This document shows positions 13,560-35,819 of a stretch of DNA of 39,732 nt, in pieces. This stretch comes from Escherichia phage HK97, in the sequence record NC_002167.1. One strand, written 5' to 3'. The notes beneath the pieces were generated by a model that saw only the letters and a program-made list of their open reading frames with translations, did not search any database and was not told the DNA's origin. Each line of letters opens with the position of its first letter. Within the stretch, counting starts at the first letter, position 1. The translations under genes were made by a program, and so were the position numbers.

Positions 13560-13784
13560 ATGTATACAGTTGGGTTTGGTTGGATCTTCGTCGGTATTTT
13601 TATTGGGTTAATTCTCTGGTTTTTCATCAACCGCGCCAGCGTCAGAGCGAACAGGTAGGTTGAATTACTTGAGTCTATCGACCAGAAATTATCAAAAATA
13701 GTAGATCCAAACTTCGAGGCAAATAACAAAGACCAGTCGAAAGAAAACTACCTTGAAGAAGCAAGGAAAAAAGCTGGGCTTTGA
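13560..13784 (+). pseudogene. paralogue of the 8203-8391 moron ORF interrupted by in-frame amber
   Basis: SD aaggaga then ATG 13560; 32-aa TM peptide (MYTVGFGWIFVGIFIGLILWFF…RANR) stops at TAG 13656-13658; the same frame continues 41 codons to TGA 13782-13784; aligns to the 8203 ORF with TAG opposite its Gln codon. Confidence 0.5.
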
Positions 13785-13798
13785 GAGCGTAAATTAAC

Positions 13799-13822
13799 AA
13801 ACCACCTACGGGTGGTTTTTTT
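13799..13822 (+). terminator. intrinsic terminator after second moron
   Basis: aaccacc-tacg-ggtggtt followed by T7. Confidence 0.6.
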
Positions 13823-13833
13823 ATGGGGGCAGC

Positions 13834-14442
13834 ATGCAAGAGGTAATGACAAGAATTGAGCTAAGTGGCGTGCTAGCTAAGACATATGGAAGGGTTCATC
13901 ACCGTCTGGTTCGCACTACTGCTGAAGCCATTAATGCACTCGCGAAAACCATCAATGGATTCGAGAAATTCTTAAACACAAGCAAAGCCCGAGGGCTGAC
14001 GTATGCCGTTTATAGAGATAAAAAGAATATTGGCGTTGATGATCTCGGCTTTCCCGTCACCGGCGAAGTGATCCGGATTGTCCCTGTAGTAATAGGGAGT
14101 AAAAAGGCTGGTCTTTTGCAGACGATCTTGGGGGCCGTGCTTATTACTGCTGCTGTGTTGACTGGACCCGGCGGTATTGGCGCTGCTTTCGCTGCTGGTG
14201 GATTGACGGGGTTTGCTGCTGCCACTGGTGCCTCGTTGGTCCTCGGTGGGGTTATTCAGCTGCTTTCACCGCAGCCATCAGGCATAGCCAGTAAACAAAG
14301 CGCAGATAACCGTGCATCGTATGCGTTTGGCGGGGTAACCAACACTGCAGCGCAAGGCTACCCGGTGCCTCTGCTTTATGGTAAGCGTCGAATCGGCGGA
14401 GCGATTATTTCTGCCGGAATTTATGTCGAAGATCAACAATAA
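13834..14442 (+). CDS. tail assembly protein I-like
   Basis: 202-aa ORF with Gly/Ala-rich hydrophobic central segment, position between K and J. Confidence 0.7.
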   Translation: MQEVMTRIELSGVLAKTYGRVHHRLVRTTAEAINALAKTINGFEKFLNTSKARGLTYAVYRDKKNIGVDDLGFPVTGEVIRIVPVVIGSKKAGLLQTILGAVLITAAVLTGPGGIGAAFAAGGLTGFAAATGASLVLGGVIQLLSPQPSGIASKQSADNRASYAFGGVTNTAAQGYPVPLLYGKRRIGGAIISAGIYVEDQQ

Positions 14443-14474
14443 ATCATTAATTAGCCGAAAGGCAGGAGAGCGTT

Positions 14475-14837
14475 ATGGAAATGACTGTAGGATTCCCTGA
14501 AATGGGTTCACGATTTGAATATGTAAGCTTCGTTCCTGATTTAGAAATTAAAACAATTAAAACTGTCACAACCAAAATTACAGTTTGCAAGCTGGAACAA
14601 ATCAATGCGCCCCATGAATTGGTGTTTATCTATCAGGAGGATTTCAATCCAAGTAGCTCTTTTGCCGAAGTCGAAGCACGCGCTAAAGAATATGCCAGTA
14701 ATGCAATTGCCGGATTAAAAACCCCGGCTCAACCGGGGCAAAGCATTAACTTTGATGCGATGGTAAATATTATCAGCCCTGGCATACAACCTGGATACCG
14801 CCTCGGCTCGGCCTTGCTCTTGCATCGTCATTTTTGA
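14475..14837 (+). CDS. hypothetical protein (moron between I and J)
   Basis: 120-aa ORF with SD aggaga; 5' two-thirds AT-rich; 3' end overlaps a convergent ORF. Confidence 0.4.
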   Translation: MEMTVGFPEMGSRFEYVSFVPDLEIKTIKTVTTKITVCKLEQINAPHELVFIYQEDFNPSSSFAEVEARAKEYASNAIAGLKTPAQPGQSINFDAMVNIISPGIQPGYRLGSALLLHRHF

Positions 14838-14975
14838 TGTATCTTCACCGTATGCCTTAGTCATATACTGAGTCACGCGCTGGCGGAAAGCTCCAGCATC
14901 ACCAGACTCGACAGTGGCGACGGCTAATAAAAACGCCAACGCTTCATCCTGTTGGTCTTCTTTGTTAAAGCTCAT
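14715..14975 (-). CDS. hypothetical protein (antisense to late operon)
   Basis: 86-aa ORF with SD aggag 7 nt upstream of ATG; minus-strand hairpin plus T-run overlaps its stop codon. Confidence 0.45.
   Translation of the reverse strand: MSFNKEDQQDEALAFLLAVATVESGDAGAFRQRVTQYMTKAYGEDTSKMTMQEQGRAEAVSRLYARADNIYHRIKVNALPRLSRGF
14717..14738 (-). terminator. intrinsic terminator for the minus-strand ORF
   Basis: On minus strand: ccccgg-ttgag-ccgggg followed by TTTTT (plus coordinates 14738 down to 14717). Confidence 0.4.
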
Positions 14976-15106
14976 TATAAACTCCTGTTATACCGAGGTC
15001 ATCAGCCGCACCGTCGGCAATTAGTGCGCCAGTGCCCACCACTGGCGGGCTGAGCTTACACATTAACCAGGGATTCCTGTTACCAACAGCCTGATATTTA
15101 AACAGT

Positions 15107-15129
15107 AGCCACCTTTGGGTGGCTTTTTT
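15107..15129 (+). terminator. intrinsic terminator upstream of J
   Basis: agccacc-ttt-gggtggct followed by T6; about 85% identical to the 13799-13822 terminator. Confidence 0.55.
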
Positions 15130-15140
15130 ATGGACGCGAT

Positions 15141-18100
15141 ATGGCTACAGAGAAAGTATTAAAGGGCCGCAAGGGCGGCAGCTCCAGTTCACGAACTCCT
15201 ACCGAACAACCTGATGATCTGCAATCTGTAGCGAAGGCCAAAATCCTCGTTGCGCTTGGGGAAGGTGAGTTTGCAGGGCAGCTCACCGGCAAAGATATCT
15301 ACCTGGACGGAACAGCGCTGGAGAATGCTGACGGCTCCCAAAACTTCAGCGGGGTAACGTGGGAGTTTCGCGCGGGAACTCAGGCGCAAAAATATATTCA
15401 GGGTATTCCCGGTACCGAAAACGAGATCAGCGTAGGAACTGAGGTATCAAGTGCCACAACCTGGACGCGCACGTTTACCAATACGCAGCTTTCAGCAGTT
15501 CGCCTGCGTCTTAAATGGCCCTCGCTTTTCAAACAGGAGGACGACGGCGATCTGGTGGGTTACTCGGTCAATTATGCAATTGACCTGCAGACGGACGGCG
15601 GCACATGGCAGACGGTACTCAATACCAGCGTGACCGGCAAAACGACGTCTGGTTATGAGCGCAGCCACCGTATCGATTTACCGCAGGCTGGCAGCACATG
15701 GACAATACGTCTGCGTAAGATTACCTCTGACGCCAACAGCGCGAAGATCGGCGACACGATGATGCTGCAGAGCTTCACCGAGGTGATTGATGCCAAACTG
15801 CGCTACCCGAACACCGCGCTGCTCTACGTCGAATTCGACTCAAGCCAGTTCAACGGCTCTATTCCTCAAATTTCATGCGAACCGCGCGGCCGCGTTATCC
15901 GCGTTCCAGATACCTACGACCCTGAAACCCGCACTTATAGCGGTACATGGACCGGTGCGTTTAAGTGGGCATGGACGGATAACCCTGCGTGGATTTTTTA
16001 CGACCTGGTTGTTTCTGACCGGTTCGGCCTTGGGCACCGTTTGACCGCTGCGAATATTGATAAATGGACGCTTTATCAGGTTGCTCAGTATTGTGATCAG
16101 ATGGTACCAGACGGCAAAGGGGGCAACGGTACAGAACCACGTTATACCTGCAACGTGTACATTCAGGACCGGAACGACGCCTACACAGTCCTGCGTGATT
16201 TTGCCGCTATCTTCCGTGGCATGACCTACTGGGGCGGGGATCAGATTGTGGCCCTGGCTGACATGCCGCGCGATGTTGATTACAGCTATACGCGCGCTAA
16301 CGTTGTTGGCGGTCGCTTCACCTATTCGAGCAGCACCACGAAAAGCCGCTACACCACAGCGCTGGTTTCATGGTCAGACCCGGGTAACGCTTATGCCGAC
16401 GCGATGGAACCGGTATTTGAGCAGGCGCTGGTGGCGCGGTACGGCTTCAATCAGCTGGAAATGACAGCCATCGGCTGCACCAGGCAGTCAGAGGCGAACC
16501 GAAAGGGGCGCTGGGGTATTCTCACCAATAACAAGGATCGCGTTGTTTCGTTTGATGTCGGGCTGGACGGAAACATTCCGCAGCCGGGCTACATCATCGC
16601 CGTGGCAGACGAGCTGCTTTCCGGAAAGGTTATGGGCGGCCGCATCAGCGCCGTTAACGGTCGCGTTATCAAACTTGACCGCGTAGCTGATGCAGCACCA
16701 GGTGATCGCCTTATTCTCAACCTGCCTTCCGGAGCGTCGCAGAGCAGGACCATTCAGGCCGTGAACGGGGAATCAGTCACAGTCACCACGGCATACAGTG
16801 AGACGCCACAGGCCGAAGCTGTTTGGGTGGTTGAATCTGACGAGCTTTACGCGCAGCAGTATCGTGTTGTCAGCGTTTCCGATAACAATGATGGCACTTT
16901 CTCGATTACCGGCGCATGGCACGACCCGGATAAATATGCCCGTATCGATACCGGAGCCATCATTGACCAACGGCCGGTGAGCGTGATCCCGCCGGGCAAC
17001 CAGTCGCCGCCTGCGAATATCGTGATCAGCTCGTTTTCCGTGGTTCAGCAAAATATCAGCGTCGAAACAATGCGCGTGAGCTGGGACCAGGCGCAGAACG
17101 CTATCGCCTATGAAGCGCAATGGCGCCGCAACGACGGGAACTGGGTTAACGTGCCGCGCACCTCCACCACGTCATTCGACGTCCCGGGGATTTATGCCGG
17201 GCGCTACCTGGTGCGGGTGCGCGCAATCAATGCCGCAGAAATTTCATCCGGATGGGGCTATTCAGAAGAGAAAACGCTGACGGGTAAAGTGGGCAATCCA
17301 CCGAAGCCGGTTGGCTTTATCGCCTCTGAAAACGTGGTGTTCGGTATCGAGCTGAACTGGGGATTCCCGGCGAATACCGACGACACGCTGAAGACGGAAA
17401 TTCAGTACAGCCTGACCGGTACTGAAGACGATGCCATGCTGCTGGCCGATGTGCCTTACCCGCAGCGCAAATATCAGCAGATGGGCCTTAAGGCTGGGCA
17501 GATTTTCTGGTACCGCGCGCAGCTGGTTGACCGCAGCGGTAACGAGTCAGGTTATACCGGCTGGGTTCGTGGGCAGGCCAGTATCGATGTTTCTGACATC
17601 ACAGATGTGATCCTTGAAGACATCAAAGGGTCTGAGACGTTCAAAGACCTGATCGAGAACGCTGTGGACAGCAATGAAAAAATTGCTGGCATGGCTGACG
17701 ACATCAAACAGGCCAACGATGAACTTGAACTCCAGGCGCAGGAAATCGCAAAAAACGCGCAGGACATCGGGCAGGTTCAGACCAGCGTTAATGAGCTTTC
17801 TAGCACGGTCGGTGATGTGTCGTCTTCTCTCTCAGATCTTGAGCAGACTGTTGCGACTGCTGATACCGCACTGGGCCAGCGAATCGACAGCATCAGCGTG
17901 TCTATGGACGGCATGACGGGCGGGGTGAAGAACTCTGCTATCGCAATTATTCAGGGCAACCTGGCGCAGGTAGCCGCGCGTAAAACGTTGTCTGCATCTG
18001 TAGCAGGGAACAGCGCTCAGCTGGACCGTCTAGACGAGGTGATCGTCAGTGAGAAGGAAGCCACAGCACGTTCATTGCTGAGCCTGCAGACGGACGTCAA

Positions 18101-19031
18101 CGGCAACAAGGCATCCATCAACAGCCTGAATCAGACGCTCTCCGACTATCAGCAGGCCACCGCCACGCAGATAAACGGCATCACGGCGACCGTGAACGGG
18201 CATACCTCCGCCATCACCACTAACGCTCAGGCTATAGCCAACGTTAATGGCGAACTCAGCGCGATGTACAACATCAAGGTTGGTGTCTCCAGCAACGGGC
18301 AGTATTACGCCGCGGGCATGGGGATTGGCGTTGGGAACACGCCGTCAGGCATGCAGTCGCAGGTTATCTTCCTGGCTGACCCGTTCGCCGTCACCACGGC
18401 AGCAGGTAACAGCGTGGCTTTGCCGTTCGTGATCCAGAACGGGCAGACATTCATCCGGGCCAGCTTCATCCAGGACGGCACCATTGAGAACGCCAAAATC
18501 GGCAACTATATCCAGTCCAACAACTATGCAGCTGGTTCTGCTGGTTGGAAGTTGAATAAAGCTGGAGATGCTGAATTCAACAATGTGACCGTCAGAGGTG
18601 TAGTATATGCTAGTGGCGGTAGCTTTACTGGTGAGATCCAAGCAACAAGCGGTAAATTCAAAGGGACTGTGGAAGCCCAAAGTTTTATCGGGGACATTGC
18701 AAATATGCACACCGGAACTAACGTTAGTCGGTCTAGTAACGGTCTTTTAGAAAAGGTAATAACTTATACGGATTCATCCAGTTCTGGGCACGCAAGACAC
18801 GTCTGTGTTATAGCAAACGTGAGAGGGAATGGTGCAGGTACGATAAATATTAACGGATCTGAGGGCTCTTCCAGCGTACAGGATGTAGAACGACTTATTA
18901 TGCATTCTGCTGTTGTAACTGGTCCAAACGTTACGGTAAGAATTACAGTTTCCGCTCAGAACAATAGAGGGGCGTCTATATCCTCACCTACTATTATTGT
19001 TTCGCACGGATCCGGTTCATTCACTGGTTAA
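15141..19031 (+). CDS. J: tail tip / host specificity protein J-like
   Basis: 1296-aa ORF after I; size and position as lambda gpJ; C-terminal about 170 codons are compositionally distinct (AT-rich). Confidence 0.85.
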   Translation: MATEKVLKGRKGGSSSSRTPTEQPDDLQSVAKAKILVALGEGEFAGQLTGKDIYLDGTALENADGSQNFSGVTWEFRAGTQAQKYIQGIPGTENEISVGTEVSSATTWTRTFTNTQLSAVRLRLKWPSLFKQEDDGDLVGYSVNYAIDLQTDGGTWQTVLNTSVTGKTTSGYERSHRIDLPQAGSTWTIRLRKITSDANSAKIGDTMMLQSFTEVIDAKLRYPNTALLYVEFDSSQFNGSIPQISCEPRGRVIRVPDTYDPETRTYSGTWTGAFKWAWTDNPAWIFYDLVVSDRFGLGHRLTAANIDKWTLYQVAQYCDQMVPDGKGGNGTEPRYTCNVYIQDRNDAYTVLRDFAAIFRGMTYWGGDQIVALADMPRDVDYSYTRANVVGGRFTYSSSTTKSRYTTALVSWSDPGNAYADAMEPVFEQALVARYGFNQLEMTAIGCTRQSEANRKGRWGILTNNKDRVVSFDVGLDGNIPQPGYIIAVADELLSGKVMGGRISAVNGRVIKLDRVADAAPGDRLILNLPSGASQSRTIQAVNGESVTVTTAYSETPQAEAVWVVESDELYAQQYRVVSVSDNNDGTFSITGAWHDPDKYARIDTGAIIDQRPVSVIPPGNQSPPANIVISSFSVVQQNISVETMRVSWDQAQNAIAYEAQWRRNDGNWVNVPRTSTTSFDVPGIYAGRYLVRVRAINAAEISSGWGYSEEKTLTGKVGNPPKPVGFIASENVVFGIELNWGFPANTDDTLKTEIQYSLTGTEDDAMLLADVPYPQRKYQQMGLKAGQIFWYRAQLVDRSGNESGYTGWVRGQASIDVSDITDVILEDIKGSETFKDLIENAVDSNEKIAGMADDIKQANDELELQAQEIAKNAQDIGQVQTSVNELSSTVGDVSSSLSDLEQTVATADTALGQRIDSISVSMDGMTGGVKNSAIAIIQGNLAQVAARKTLSASVAGNSAQLDRLDEVIVSEKEATARSLLSLQTDVNGNKASINSLNQTLSDYQQATATQINGITATVNGHTSAITTNAQAIANVNGELSAMYNIKVGVSSNGQYYAAGMGIGVGNTPSGMQSQVIFLADPFAVTTAAGNSVALPFVIQNGQTFIRASFIQDGTIENAKIGNYIQSNNYAAGSAGWKLNKAGDAEFNNVTVRGVVYASGGSFTGEIQATSGKFKGTVEAQSFIGDIANMHTGTNVSRSSNGLLEKVITYTDSSSSGHARHVCVIANVRGNGAGTININGSEGSSSVQDVERLIMHSAVVTGPNVTVRITVSAQNNRGASISSPTIIVSHGSGSFTG

Positions 19032-35014: not shown

Positions 35015-35199
35015 ACGCCACAATTCAAACGATACCAGAACTGCTTATCCAGACACGAGGCAATCAGACCGAAGTGGCGAGGATGCTTTCCTGCGCAAGA
35101 GGAACAGTGCTCAAGTACAACCGAGACAGCAAAGGCGAGCGTCACGTAATAGTTAACGGCGTCCTGATGGTCAAACAGGGCAAGAGGGGAAGACCATGA
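35011..35199 (+). CDS. ninH: NinH-like protein
   Basis: 62-aa ORF …GNQTEVARMLSCARGTVLKY… resembles recalled lambda NinH. Confidence 0.55.
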   Translation: MNATIQTIPELLIQTRGNQTEVARMLSCARGTVLKYNRDSKGERHVIVNGVLMVKQGKRGRP

Positions 35200-35819
35200 G
35201 ACTCGAAAGCGTAGCTAAATTTCACTCGCCAAAAAGCCCGATGATGAGCGACTCACCACGGACCACGGCTTCTGACTCTCTTTCCGGTACTGATGTGATG
35301 GCTGCTATGGGGATGGCGCAATCACAAGCCGGATTCGGAATGGCTGCATTCTGCGGTAAGCATGAACTCAGCCAGAACGACAAACAAAAGGCTATCAACT
35401 ATCTGATGCAATTTGCACACAAGGTATCGGGGAAATACCGTGGTGTGGCAAAGCTCGAAGGAAATACTAAGGCAAAGGTACTGCAAGTGCTCGCAACATT
35501 CGCTTATGCGGATTATTGCCGTAGTGCCGCGACGCCGGGCGCAAGATGCAGAGATTGCCACGGTACAGGCCGTGCGGTTGATATTGCCAAAACAGAGCTG
35601 TGGGGGAGAGTTGTTGAGAAAGAATGCGGAAGATGCAAAGGTGTCGGCTATTCAAGAATGCCAGCAAGCGCCGCATATCGCGCTGTAACGATGCTAATCC
35701 CAAACCTCACCCAACCCACCTGGTCACGCACTGTTAAGCCGCTGTATGACGCTCTGGTGGTGCAATGCCACAAGGAAGAGTCAATTGCAGACAACATTTT
35801 GAACGCGGTCACACGTTAG
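35196..35819 (+). CDS. Q: late gene antiterminator Q
   Basis: 207-aa ORF matching recalled lambda Q (MRLESVAKFHSPKSPMMSDSPR…); Cys cluster CRDCHGTGR. Confidence 0.9.
   Translation: MRLESVAKFHSPKSPMMSDSPRTTASDSLSGTDVMAAMGMAQSQAGFGMAAFCGKHELSQNDKQKAINYLMQFAHKVSGKYRGVAKLEGNTKAKVLQVLATFAYADYCRSAATPGARCRDCHGTGRAVDIAKTELWGRVVEKECGRCKGVGYSRMPASAAYRAVTMLIPNLTQPTWSRTVKPLYDALVVQCHKEESIADNILNAVTR

What the first reader, a model, noticed from the sequence alone, without database searches (positions are those of the whole stretch)
14475..15129. Convergent, overlapping ORF pair between I and J with an internal minus-strand terminator
A plus-strand 120-aa ORF (AT-rich 5' part, SD aggaga) and a minus-strand 86-aa ORF (SD aggag) overlap by about 120 nt. 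The minus-strand ORF ends exactly at a minus-strand hairpin plus T-run (14717-14738), so an antisense gene embedded in the late tail operon has its own terminator. A plus-strand terminator (15107-15129) then precedes J. This suggests an independently regulated cassette; at most one of the overlapping reading frames may be functional over the overlap.
Basis: seen in the sequence. Interest (0 to 1): 0.5.

Follow-up and report, generated by a model that had tools for sequence, protein, structure and literature searches.

The report
HK97 moron genes 22 and 23
The overlapping gene pair is the already annotated accessory ("moron") genes 22 and 23 of phage HK97; the 123-base overlap comes from two small changes that removed both stop codons in this genome only, so it is not a designed overlap.

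Summary
The window is the complete phage HK97 genome. The two ORFs match its annotated Gp22 (120 aa) and Gp23 (86 aa) exactly.

In 22 related loci and the nearest relative, the same cassette encodes an 85-96 aa plus-strand protein and a 75 aa minus-strand protein. These do not overlap, or overlap by only 8 nt. HK97 alone lost both stops:
- TAA became CAA in the hairpin loop (14730).
- A net +2 nt arose at the gene 23 stop (about 14749-14753).

Both conserved cores are under purifying selection: dN/dS is 0.01-0.07 for gene 23 and 0.1-0.28 for gene 22. The added tails are not conserved.

The cassette is mobile. It sits in the I-J or H-M slot, and in other late-operon slots in Erwinia, Photorhabdus and Xenorhabdus. 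HK106 has an empty I-J site.

Gene 23 has its own terminator and a structured 5' leader, which more than 119 cassettes with at least 28 unrelated cargo genes also carry. Protein function is unknown: there are no family or fold matches.

Verdict: real, already known in kind, and the overlap is incidental.

The parts
14443..15108 (.). Inserted accessory ('moron') cassette between tail genes I (gp21) and J (gp24); these are HK97 genes 22 and 23
   Evidence: HK106 is 97.5% identical over the structural region and has only 52 nt at this site. The same cassette, 78-92% identical, sits in the I-J or H-M slot of 22 other loci.
14464..14468 (+). Shine-Dalgarno sequence (AGGAG) of gene 22, 6 nt before the ATG
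   Evidence: Read from the sequence. Invariant in all cassette copies.
14475..14729 (+). Gene 22 conserved core (85 codons); AT-rich; probably read from the late-operon transcript
   Evidence: Exact match to HK97 Gp22. Homologues are 85-96 aa and end at ...LKTPA or shortly after. dN/dS is 0.1-0.28. Distant homologues (26-42% identity) pair with gp23-like genes in Erwinia, Photorhabdus and Xenorhabdus. GC is 34-35%.
14730..14837 (+). HK97-specific 35-codon tail of gene 22. The ancestral stop TAA at 14730-14732, in the hairpin loop, is CAA here.
   Evidence: Alignments. The tail is absent from all homologues. This frame is the codon-aligned antisense frame of gene 23 and is open in all relatives regardless of gene 22.
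14717..14739 (-). Intrinsic terminator of gene 23: stem 14739-14721, then TTTTT at 14721-14717. On the plus strand no T-run follows, so late transcription is not stopped here.
   Evidence: The scan reports it on the minus strand only. Fold. The stem is invariant and the loop variable in all cassette copies. GC-rich hairpins also follow gp23-like genes in three distant genera.
14715..14750 (-). HK97-specific 11-codon tail of gene 23 (VNALPRLSRGF) plus stop. It results from a net +2 nt (GCATTAACTTTGATG here, GCATTA(C/T)TTGATG in relatives) that removes the ancestral TAA.
   Evidence: Nearest relative L026 lacks the +2 nt and encodes the 75-aa form. The 86-aa form is seen only on the 39,732-bp HK97 contig.
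14751..14975 (-). Gene 23 conserved core (75 codons); predicted three-helix bundle
   Evidence: Exact match to HK97 Gp23. The 75-aa form occurs on 579 contigs. dN/dS is 0.01-0.07 with dS up to about 2. The family has 18 clusters across Enterobacterales. AlphaFold2 mean pLDDT is 88.6, with helices at 5-22, 27-42 and 51-74.
14982..14986 (-). Shine-Dalgarno sequence (AGGAG) of gene 23, 6 nt before the ATG
   Evidence: invariant block AACTCCTGTTATACCGAGG.
14993..15053 (-). Structured 5' leader of the gene 23 mRNA. It starts with UCAGCC (15053-15048), then hairpin P2 (15047-15027), then hairpin P3 (15017-14993). The P3 loop carries GGCUGA (15007-15002), complementary to the 5' UCAGCC.
   Evidence: Alignment of 58 leaders: 93.6% of cells paired against 28-48% in slid controls. 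P2 pairs use G-U on the minus strand only. P3 has both-side changes in 4 of 6 pairs. No Rfam family matches.
15060..15098 (-). Putative promoter region of gene 23: -10-like TAATGT (15065-15060), conserved blocks CCCTGGTTA (15072-15064) and AATATCAGG (15098-15090), and a weak -35-like TGTTGG
   Evidence: Block conservation across 91 unique arms. The hexamer reads TA(A/T)nGT in most of the listed arms, 6 nt before UCAGCC. The consensus scan found no match. This part is inferred, not shown.
15107..15129 (+). Plus-strand intrinsic terminator just before J; also present at the empty I-J site of HK106
   Evidence: (z = -2.8). The window encodes a Q antiterminator at 35196-35819 (PF03589, E = 9e-58). 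The HK106 late operon is annotated with several internal terminators.

Best explanation
The region is the moron cassette of phage HK97 that carries genes 22 and 23. It is a horizontally mobile, convergent two-gene module inserted between tail genes I and J.

**Gene 23 (minus strand)** is an autonomous unit. It has an inferred weak sigma-70-type promoter in the conserved right arm, with a -10-like TAATGT at 15065-15060. Next come a structured 5' leader, an SD, a 75-codon core encoding a small three-helix-bundle protein, and an intrinsic terminator at 14739-14717.

**Gene 22 (plus strand)** has no promoter of its own. It is translated from the Q-antiterminated late transcript. That transcript also reads through the hairpin (no T-run on the plus strand) and through the pre-J terminator. 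Ancestrally the stop codon of gene 22 lies in the loop of the shared hairpin. The stop of gene 23 lies a few nt before the hairpin, so the genes abut without overlapping.

**In HK97 only**, T to C at 14730 (TAA to CAA) and a net +2 nt at about 14749-14753 removed both stops. This added a 35-aa tail to Gp22 and an 11-aa tail to Gp23 and created the 123-nt overlap. The overlap has no conserved function.

**Inferred, not shown:** Gp23 is made in the lysogen and Gp22 only during lytic growth. Convergent late transcription then shuts gene 23 off. The two proteins are functionally coupled, for example a prophage-expressed host-benefit or exclusion factor and a late-expressed partner or antagonist.
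For: **Identity.** Both ORFs match HK97 Gp22 and Gp23 exactly. The 120-aa and 86-aa forms occur on one 39,732-bp contig only.

**Overlap is derived.**
- 22 related loci encode 85-96 aa and 75 aa proteins with gaps of 2-13 nt.
- Nearest relative L026 shares the CAA loop codon but lacks the +2 nt. It encodes 92 aa and 75 aa with an 8-nt overlap.
- Base-level alignments show the two lesions.

**Both genes are real.**
- Gene 23 has dN/dS 0.01-0.07.
- Gene 22 has dN/dS 0.1-0.28.
- Homologues reach down to 26-50% identity.

**Mobility.**
- The HK106 I-J site is empty.
- The cassette sits in the I-J slot in 9 loci plus the window, and in the H-M slot in 13.
- Distant pairs lie between the lysis genes and terminase, between H and M, or between Q and holin. 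The gp22-like gene is always co-directional with the late genes, and the gap is 12-16 nt.

**Minus-strand transcription.**
- The terminator is minus-strand-specific.
- Leader hairpins tolerate C-A on the plus strand, which is G-U on the minus strand, but never T-G. They also show compensatory changes.

**Gene 22 depends on late transcription.**
- No promoter-like site lies upstream.
- In H-M-slot copies a terminator T-run ends about 20 nt before its SD.
- A Q antiterminator is encoded in the window.
Against: - No consensus promoter was found for gene 23. The proposed -10 has a poor -35.
- No transcript or protein data for HK97 genes 22 or 23 were found in the searchable literature.
- Function is unknown. 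Pfam, PADLOC and NCBIfam gave nothing, and PHROGs gave only a weak match to a family of unknown function. No solved or predicted-viral fold match reached E < 1. The Gp22 model is unusable (pLDDT 44).
- gp22-like genes also pair with 8 other cargo families, which weakens a specific Gp22-Gp23 partnership.
- The +2 nt could be an error in the original record rather than a mutation. I could not check this.
Confidence: 0.8

Rival explanations
1. The 123-nt overlap, or at least its larger part, is a sequencing artefact. The net +2 nt next to a GC-rich hairpin would be an error in the deposited HK97 sequence. Real HK97 would then look like L026: a 92-aa Gp22, a 75-aa Gp23 and an 8-nt overlap.
For: The cassette otherwise differs from L026 by only about 5 substitutions in roughly 700 nt. 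The +2 nt is unique among all copies examined. The 86-aa and 120-aa forms are seen on a single contig.
Against: There is no independent HK97 sequence in the collections to compare with (one search found no full-length match). HK97 also carries a clean C to T nonsense change in the neighbouring gene-20 moron. That fits real decay of accessory genes in this stock. The CAA loop codon is real, since 44 E. coli contigs share it.
Confidence: 0.15
2. This is a true overlapping (overprinted) gene pair, and the C-terminal tails of Gp22 and Gp23 are functional parts of the proteins in HK97.
For: Both ORFs are open and annotated. Homologues tolerate short, variable C-terminal tails.
Against: The tails are absent from every relative. 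The Gp22 tail is simply the codon-aligned antisense frame of gene 23, and it is open in all relatives whether or not it is joined to gene 22. The Gp23 tail is encoded by the terminator hairpin itself.
Confidence: 0.03
3. The minus-strand transcript acts mainly as an antisense RNA against late tail-operon mRNA, like STnc6030 of Salmonella prophage BTP1, rather than through its protein.
For: It is fully complementary to the late transcript across about 340 nt. A prophage antisense RNA within late genes does mediate superinfection exclusion in BTP1 (PMC7067206).
Against: With dN/dS of 0.01-0.07 and saturated synonymous change, selection acts on the protein, not the RNA sequence. The same leader drives at least 28 unrelated ORFs. 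The transcript is antisense only to cassette DNA, not to an essential tail gene.
Confidence: 0.07
4. Genes 22 and 23 form a toxin-antitoxin or defence-antidote pair. The prophage makes one protein; the other, made late, neutralises it so the phage's own lytic cycle is not blocked.
For: The pair is conserved as a convergent module with a 2-16 nt gap across genera, at only 26-50% protein identity. The orientation rule predicts expression in opposite life-cycle phases. Prophage defence with a self-inhibitor made in the lytic cycle has a precedent in Tha of S. aureus prophages (PMC11087260; abstract seen).
Against: PADLOC and Pfam gave no match. gp22-like genes also pair with other cargo families. 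One gp23-like gene stands alone. Classical type II TA operons are co-transcribed, not convergent.
Confidence: 0.2

Closest known systems
Morons of lambdoid phages, as defined for HK97 and HK022 (Juhala et al. 2000, as summarised in PMC3594210); for example HK97 gene 15
   Same: It is extra DNA between two genes that are adjacent in relatives. Its base composition is deviant, it has its own terminator, and it lies inside the repressed late/tail operon. These very ORFs are the annotated HK97 Gp22 and Gp23.
   Different: Gene 15 is a single co-directional gene with a shown function (superinfection exclusion, YebO-like). Here there are two convergent genes, one of them antisense to the operon. Function is unknown and the promoter is not demonstrated.
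HK022 gp22 / gp23 ('srb protein', annotated DUF2594 in mEp506), in the same I-J slot
   Same: The slot is the same, and the pair is again a convergent plus/minus ORF pair annotated as 'moron gene product'. The right arm of about 130 nt and the pre-J terminator are the same.
   Different: The proteins are unrelated. hhalign of the gp23 family against the DUF2594-like cargo gives 0.4% probability. The annotated HK022 and mEp506 ORFs overlap by 81 nt and 51 nt.
STnc6030 antisense RNA of Salmonella prophage BTP1 (PMC7067206)
   Same: It is a prophage transcript antisense to late structural genes.
   Different: STnc6030 is non-coding and targets an essential phage gene. Here the antisense unit encodes a strongly constrained protein and overlaps only accessory DNA.
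Tha defence with a lytic-cycle self-inhibitor in S. aureus prophages (PMC11087260)
   Same: The logic is a prophage-expressed factor plus a phage-encoded counter-factor made during the phage's own lytic cycle. Here this is only a hypothesis.
   Different: There is no sequence or domain similarity, and nothing was tested here.

Membership tests
Moron (Juhala et al. 2000 sense) | Extra DNA between two genes that are adjacent in related phages | tested here: met
   HK106 has 52 nt between I and J; HK97 has 698 nt. The cassette is also found in the H-M slot.
Moron (Juhala et al. 2000 sense) | Own transcription terminator | tested here: met
   A minus-strand-specific hairpin plus T-run lies at 14739-14717. 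It is conserved in all copies and in distant homologues.
Moron (Juhala et al. 2000 sense) | Own promoter | tested here: inconclusive
   The consensus scan found no match. A conserved TA(A/T)nGT hexamer lies 6 nt before the conserved leader start, with only a weak -35. Indirect support comes from minus-strand-specific RNA pairing in the leader.
Moron (Juhala et al. 2000 sense) | Base composition different from neighbouring genes | tested here: met
   Gene 22 is 34-35% GC against 46-60% in I and J. Gene 23 is about 50%.
Moron (Juhala et al. 2000 sense) | Expressed from the repressed prophage | not testable with these tools
   This needs strand-specific RNA-seq or a reporter in an HK97 lysogen. 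No data were found.
Functional overlapping (overprinted) genes | Both reading frames conserved across the overlap in relatives | tested here: not met
   There is no overlap in the 22 related loci and 8 nt in the nearest relative. The tails are absent from all homologues.
Type II toxin-antitoxin module | Two co-transcribed genes with recognisable toxin and antitoxin domains | tested here: not met
   The genes are convergent, not co-transcribed. Pfam, NCBIfam and PADLOC gave no match.
DUF2594 / HK022 Srb-like proteins | Sequence or profile similarity to the family | tested here: not met
   Gp23 has no Pfam hit. hhalign probability is 0.4% or less against clusters 2 and 4.
Any Rfam RNA family (for the leader and the hairpins) | Covariance-model match at or above the gathering score | tested here: not met
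   The best hits (isrD 18 bits against 37; STnc130 24.5 against 55) fall on terminator hairpins only.

The most novel reading that the evidence does not exclude
The roughly 130-nt right arm of the cassette may be a widespread, undescribed expression platform. It would be a promoter plus a structured 5' leader with two hairpins and a possible 5'-end/loop pseudoknot. In lambdoid prophages of Enterobacterales it drives at least 28 unrelated small genes placed antisense inside late operons. These genes are usually paired with a convergent small gene read from the late transcript. The architecture would then be a general lysogeny/lysis toggle: the antisense cargo is on in the prophage and is silenced by convergent late transcription, while the partner is made only in lytic growth. 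Gp23/Gp22 would be one such pair, for example a host-benefit or exclusion factor and its late-expressed antagonist.
Probability: 0.25. Interest if true: 0.6.

Novelty: already known. Interest (0 to 1): 0.25.

Why it matters
For the finding as written, very little. It rediscovers two annotated HK97 accessory genes, and the eye-catching overlap is incidental.

It is useful as a caution. Long convergent overlaps in a single genome can arise from trivial stop-codon loss. Comparison with relatives resolves them quickly.

The wider context is more interesting. A conserved leader/terminator arm is reused by many unrelated antisense cargo genes in late operons of lambdoid prophages. That points to a standard plug-in format for prophage accessory genes whose functions and regulation are almost entirely uncharacterised.

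Tried and rejected
**Protein searches that found nothing**
- Pfam, NCBIfam and PADLOC for both proteins and for the HK022 and mEp506 counterparts gave nothing above noise. PHROGs gave only a weak Gp22 hit to phrog_11851, of unknown function.
- PDB sequence profiles gave nothing.
- Foldseek of the Gp23 model against PDB and BFVD gave no hit with E < 1.
- The afdb50 library was unavailable.
- The AlphaFold2 model of Gp22 is unusable, pLDDT 44.

**RNA**
- Rfam at E <= 10 hit only terminator-like fragments.

**Alternatives in the right arm, all rejected or left open**
- A 32-aa upstream ORF on the minus strand (14965-15063) was rejected. Its ATG is in a different frame in relatives and it stops early there.
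- The scan's minus-strand promoter hit at 15002-14974 was rejected. Its TATAAT is the SD-ATG spacer of gene 23.
- A plus-strand promoter inside gene 23 that could make an sRNA ending at the pre-J terminator was rejected. The -10 is not conserved, and hairpin variation favours the minus strand.
- A sigma-54 reading of the conserved blocks was rejected because the GG-GC spacing is wrong.
- The imperfect inverted repeat AATATCAGG/CCCTGGTTA as an RNA helix shows no compensatory change.

**Homology tests**
- Gp23 against 27 other cargo clusters: only cluster 14 is related (85% probability).
- gp22-like against DUF1327-like partners: weak and inconclusive (47% probability).

**Literature**
- Juhala et al. 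2000 and Cumby et al. 2012 are not held.
- Accession and keyword searches found nothing specific on HK97 gp22 or gp23.

**Caveat on the arm sample**
- The 119 arm-bearing loci were found with a pattern inside the leader. The pattern fixed part of P2 and the UCAGCC block.

Full report
**What the window is.** The 39,732-bp window is the complete genome of the lambdoid phage HK97. An exact-sequence look-up places the plus-strand 120-aa ORF as HK97 Gp22 (AAF31110 / NP_037715). It places the minus-strand 86-aa ORF as HK97 Gp23 (AAF31113 / NP_037716). Each exact form is recorded on a single 39,732-bp contig. The flanking genes are the lambda I homologue (13834-14442, Pfam Lambda_tail_I) and the J homologue (15141-19031). 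HK97 itself is absent from the annotated phage collection. Its closest member there is HK106, 97.5% identical over 92% of the first 25 kb.

**Checking the observation.**
- Plus ORF: 14475-14837, with AGGAG at 14464-14468.
- Minus ORF: 14715-14975, with AGGAG at 14986-14982.
- Overlap: 123 nt.
- Minus-strand hairpin: 14739-14721, followed by TTTTT. On the plus strand no T-run follows, so it is a terminator for the minus strand only.
- Plus-strand terminator: 15107-15129, just before J.
- The 5' part of the plus ORF is 34-35% GC against 46-60% in the flanks, and GC skew reverses over the minus-strand gene.

In HK97 the minus ORF does not end before the hairpin. It reads through it, and its TAA lies inside the T-run.

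**Why the ORFs overlap.** The same cassette, 78-92% identical in DNA, was found in E. coli chromosomes and in 19 IMG/VR viral contigs.
- In all 22 related loci the plus-strand gene encodes 85 or 96 aa and the minus-strand gene 75 aa. They are separated by 2-13 nt.
- Base-level alignment shows two HK97 lesions. First, the ancestral stop of gene 22 is TAA in the loop of the shared hairpin (CCCCGGCT-TAA-CCGGGG), and HK97 has CAA (T to C at 14730). Second, the ancestral stop of gene 23 is the TAA in CGC ATC AAR TAA. HK97 has a net +2 nt (GCATTAACTTTGATG against GCATTA(C/T)TTGATG). This shifts the frame past the stop and adds 11 codons that are simply the terminator hairpin.
- The nearest relative is an E. 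coli metagenome contig in the same I-J slot, with about 5 substitutions in 700 nt. It shares CAA but lacks the +2 nt. It encodes 92 aa and 75 aa with an 8-nt overlap. That 92-aa/75-aa pair occurs on 43-44 E. coli contigs.
- The 35-aa tail that HK97 adds to Gp22 is the codon-aligned antisense frame of gene 23. That frame is open over the same stretch in every relative, whether or not it is joined to gene 22. Its length is therefore a passive property of gene 23's codons.

So the overlap is derived, confined to HK97, and carries no conserved coding on the second frame. I cannot exclude that the +2 nt is an error in the original record.

**Are both genes real?** Yes.
- Gene 23 shows dN/dS of 0.01-0.07 while synonymous divergence reaches saturation.
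- Gene 22 shows dN/dS of 0.1-0.28.
- An exhaustive search and a profile search give a gp23 family of 18 clusters, 71-85 aa, in Escherichia, Enterobacter, Citrobacter, Kluyvera, Atlantibacter, Erwinia, Photorhabdus and Xenorhabdus.
- AlphaFold2 predicts a confident three-helix bundle for Gp23, pLDDT 88.6. It has no significant match in PDB or BFVD.
- Gp22 has homologues down to 26% identity, but its model is unusable.
- No Pfam, NCBIfam or PADLOC family matches either protein. PHROGs gives only a weak hit to a family of unknown function.

**A mobile, convergent two-gene module.**
- HK106 has an empty I-J site: 52 nt that contain only the pre-J terminator.
- Among the related loci the cassette lies between I and J in 9 (plus HK97) and between the tape-measure region and M in 13. 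The orientation is always the same.
- Distant gp23 homologues (43-50% identity) again have a convergent gp22-like partner 12-16 nt away. In Erwinia the pair lies between the lysis genes and terminase, in Photorhabdus between the tape measure and M, and in Xenorhabdus between Q and holin. The gp22-like gene is always co-directional with the late genes. A GC-rich hairpin follows the gp23-like stop in each.
- One gp23-like gene stands alone beside a prophage remnant.

**How it is probably expressed.**

*Shown.*
- The terminator is specific to the minus strand.
- Gene 22 has no promoter-like site upstream. In H-M-slot copies a terminator T-run ends about 20 nt before its SD.
- HK97 encodes a Q antiterminator.
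- The late operon of HK106 is annotated with several internal terminators.

*Also shown: the leader is structured RNA on the minus strand.*
- The leader between the gene 23 start and about 15053 behaves as structured RNA on the minus strand. In 58 leaders, 93.6% of cells pair, against 28-48% when partners are slid.
- Hairpin P2 (15047-15027) varies as U-A, C-G and U-G at one pair, and as U-G, C-G and U-A at another. The plus-strand equivalent would be C-A mismatches, and the reverse pattern (T-G on the plus strand) is never seen.
- Hairpin P3 (15017-14993) has both-side changes at 4 of 6 pairs. Its conserved 12-nt loop contains GGCUGA, complementary to the invariant UCAGCC at the leader's start.

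*Inferred.*
- The promoter is a TA(A/T)nGT hexamer (TAATGT, 15065-15060) 6 nt upstream of UCAGCC, with only a weak -35-like TGTT(G/A)C. It is flanked by the conserved blocks CCCTGGTTA and AATATCAGG.
- Gene 23 is therefore expected to be transcribed in the lysogen and terminated at the hairpin.
- Gene 22 is expected to be made only from the antiterminated late transcript, whose passage should also interfere with gene 23.

No transcript data for these genes were found.

**The wider family of cassettes.** The right arm is not specific to gene 23. HK022 and mEp506 carry unrelated convergent ORF pairs in the same slot with the same arm. In HK022 these are annotated 'moron gene product', one of them 'srb protein'; in mEp506 one is annotated DUF2594.
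- On the minus strand the arm precedes a small ORF in 119 of the 120 motif occurrences. These cargo ORFs fall into 28 clusters. They include DUF1883, DUF2594-like proteins, a 154-aa retropepsin-like protein and many helical orphans.
- Only one other cluster is related to Gp23.
- Most cargo genes have a convergent plus-strand partner. It often starts MTLEQRVEALE..., is gp22-like in 23 of 115 cases (with 9 cargo clusters), or is DUF1327-like. Short 3' overlaps of 17-54 nt are common.
- The sample is biased by the search pattern, and the ORF calls are mechanical.

**Comparison with what is known.** These are the genes numbered 22 and 23 in HK97. They fit the 'moron' concept introduced for HK97 and HK022, as summarised in PMC3594210: extra DNA in a conserved gene order, deviant composition, and their own transcription signals. 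Three of those criteria were met here. The promoter is inconclusive, and prophage expression cannot be tested with these tools. The pair is not a type II TA module, because the genes are convergent and have no known domains. It is not a conserved overprinted pair, not DUF2594, and not any Rfam family. Analogies such as the STnc6030 antisense RNA (PMC7067206) and prophage defence with a lytic-cycle self-inhibitor (PMC11087260) are leads only.

**Verdict.** The feature is already known: annotated moron genes. The overlap is an incidental, HK97-only consequence of losing two stop codons. Interest in the finding itself is low. The reusable structured leader/terminator arm, and the many uncharacterised convergent gene pairs that use it, are the part worth following up.

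Noticed in passing
window 13560-13658 (C to T at 13656); compare L002:761-985 and L152:13507-13731: The moron between K and I encodes a 74-aa YebO-like protein in HK022 (gp20) and HK106 (HK106_018). The HK97 copy is 99% identical but has CAG changed to TAG, which truncates it to 32 aa. The transmembrane segment and the Pfam YebO match are retained. With genes 22 and 23, this makes three accessory genes in HK97's tail region with ORF-boundary lesions relative to relatives.
   Followed up: partly
window 14976-15108 (minus strand); alignment A8; loci L033-L151: A conserved arm of about 130 nt (putative promoter, structured 5' leader with two hairpins, possible 5'-end/loop pseudoknot UCAGCC/GGCUGA) precedes small antisense genes of at least 28 unrelated families in more than 119 viral contigs. 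It matches no Rfam family.
   Followed up: partly
loci L033-L151, plus-strand ORFs next to the cargo genes: 53 of 115 convergent plus-strand partner ORFs begin with a near-identical coiled-coil N-terminus (MTLEQRVEALE...) fused to otherwise different sequences. This suggests a conserved left recombination boundary or a shared N-terminal module. Other partners are DUF1327 or gp22-like.
   Followed up: partly
L030 (Xenorhabdus taiwanensis AP028978.1), locus 302-2174: The prophage that carries a gp23/gp22-like pair between Q and holin also encodes KwaA/KwaB (Kiwa defence) and an Acb2/Tad1-hairpin-like protein just beyond the lysis genes.
   Followed up: no
L029 (Photorhabdus cinerea PUJW01000038.1), locus 693-2772: The H-M slot there holds several accessory genes beside the gp23/gp22-like pair: a RelB/YafQ-ParE toxin-antitoxin pair, an ORF6N-domain protein and a DUF2545/zinc-ribbon protein. 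This makes the slot a multi-cargo hotspot.
   Followed up: no
window 13799-13818 and 15107-15124: Two near-identical plus-strand terminators sit immediately before I and before J: (A)AACCACCTACGGGTGGTTTTTTTATGG and AGCCACCTTTGGGTGGCTTTTTTATGG. Each is followed by ATGG and then a tail-gene start. The same unit precedes M in H-M-slot cassettes.
   Followed up: partly
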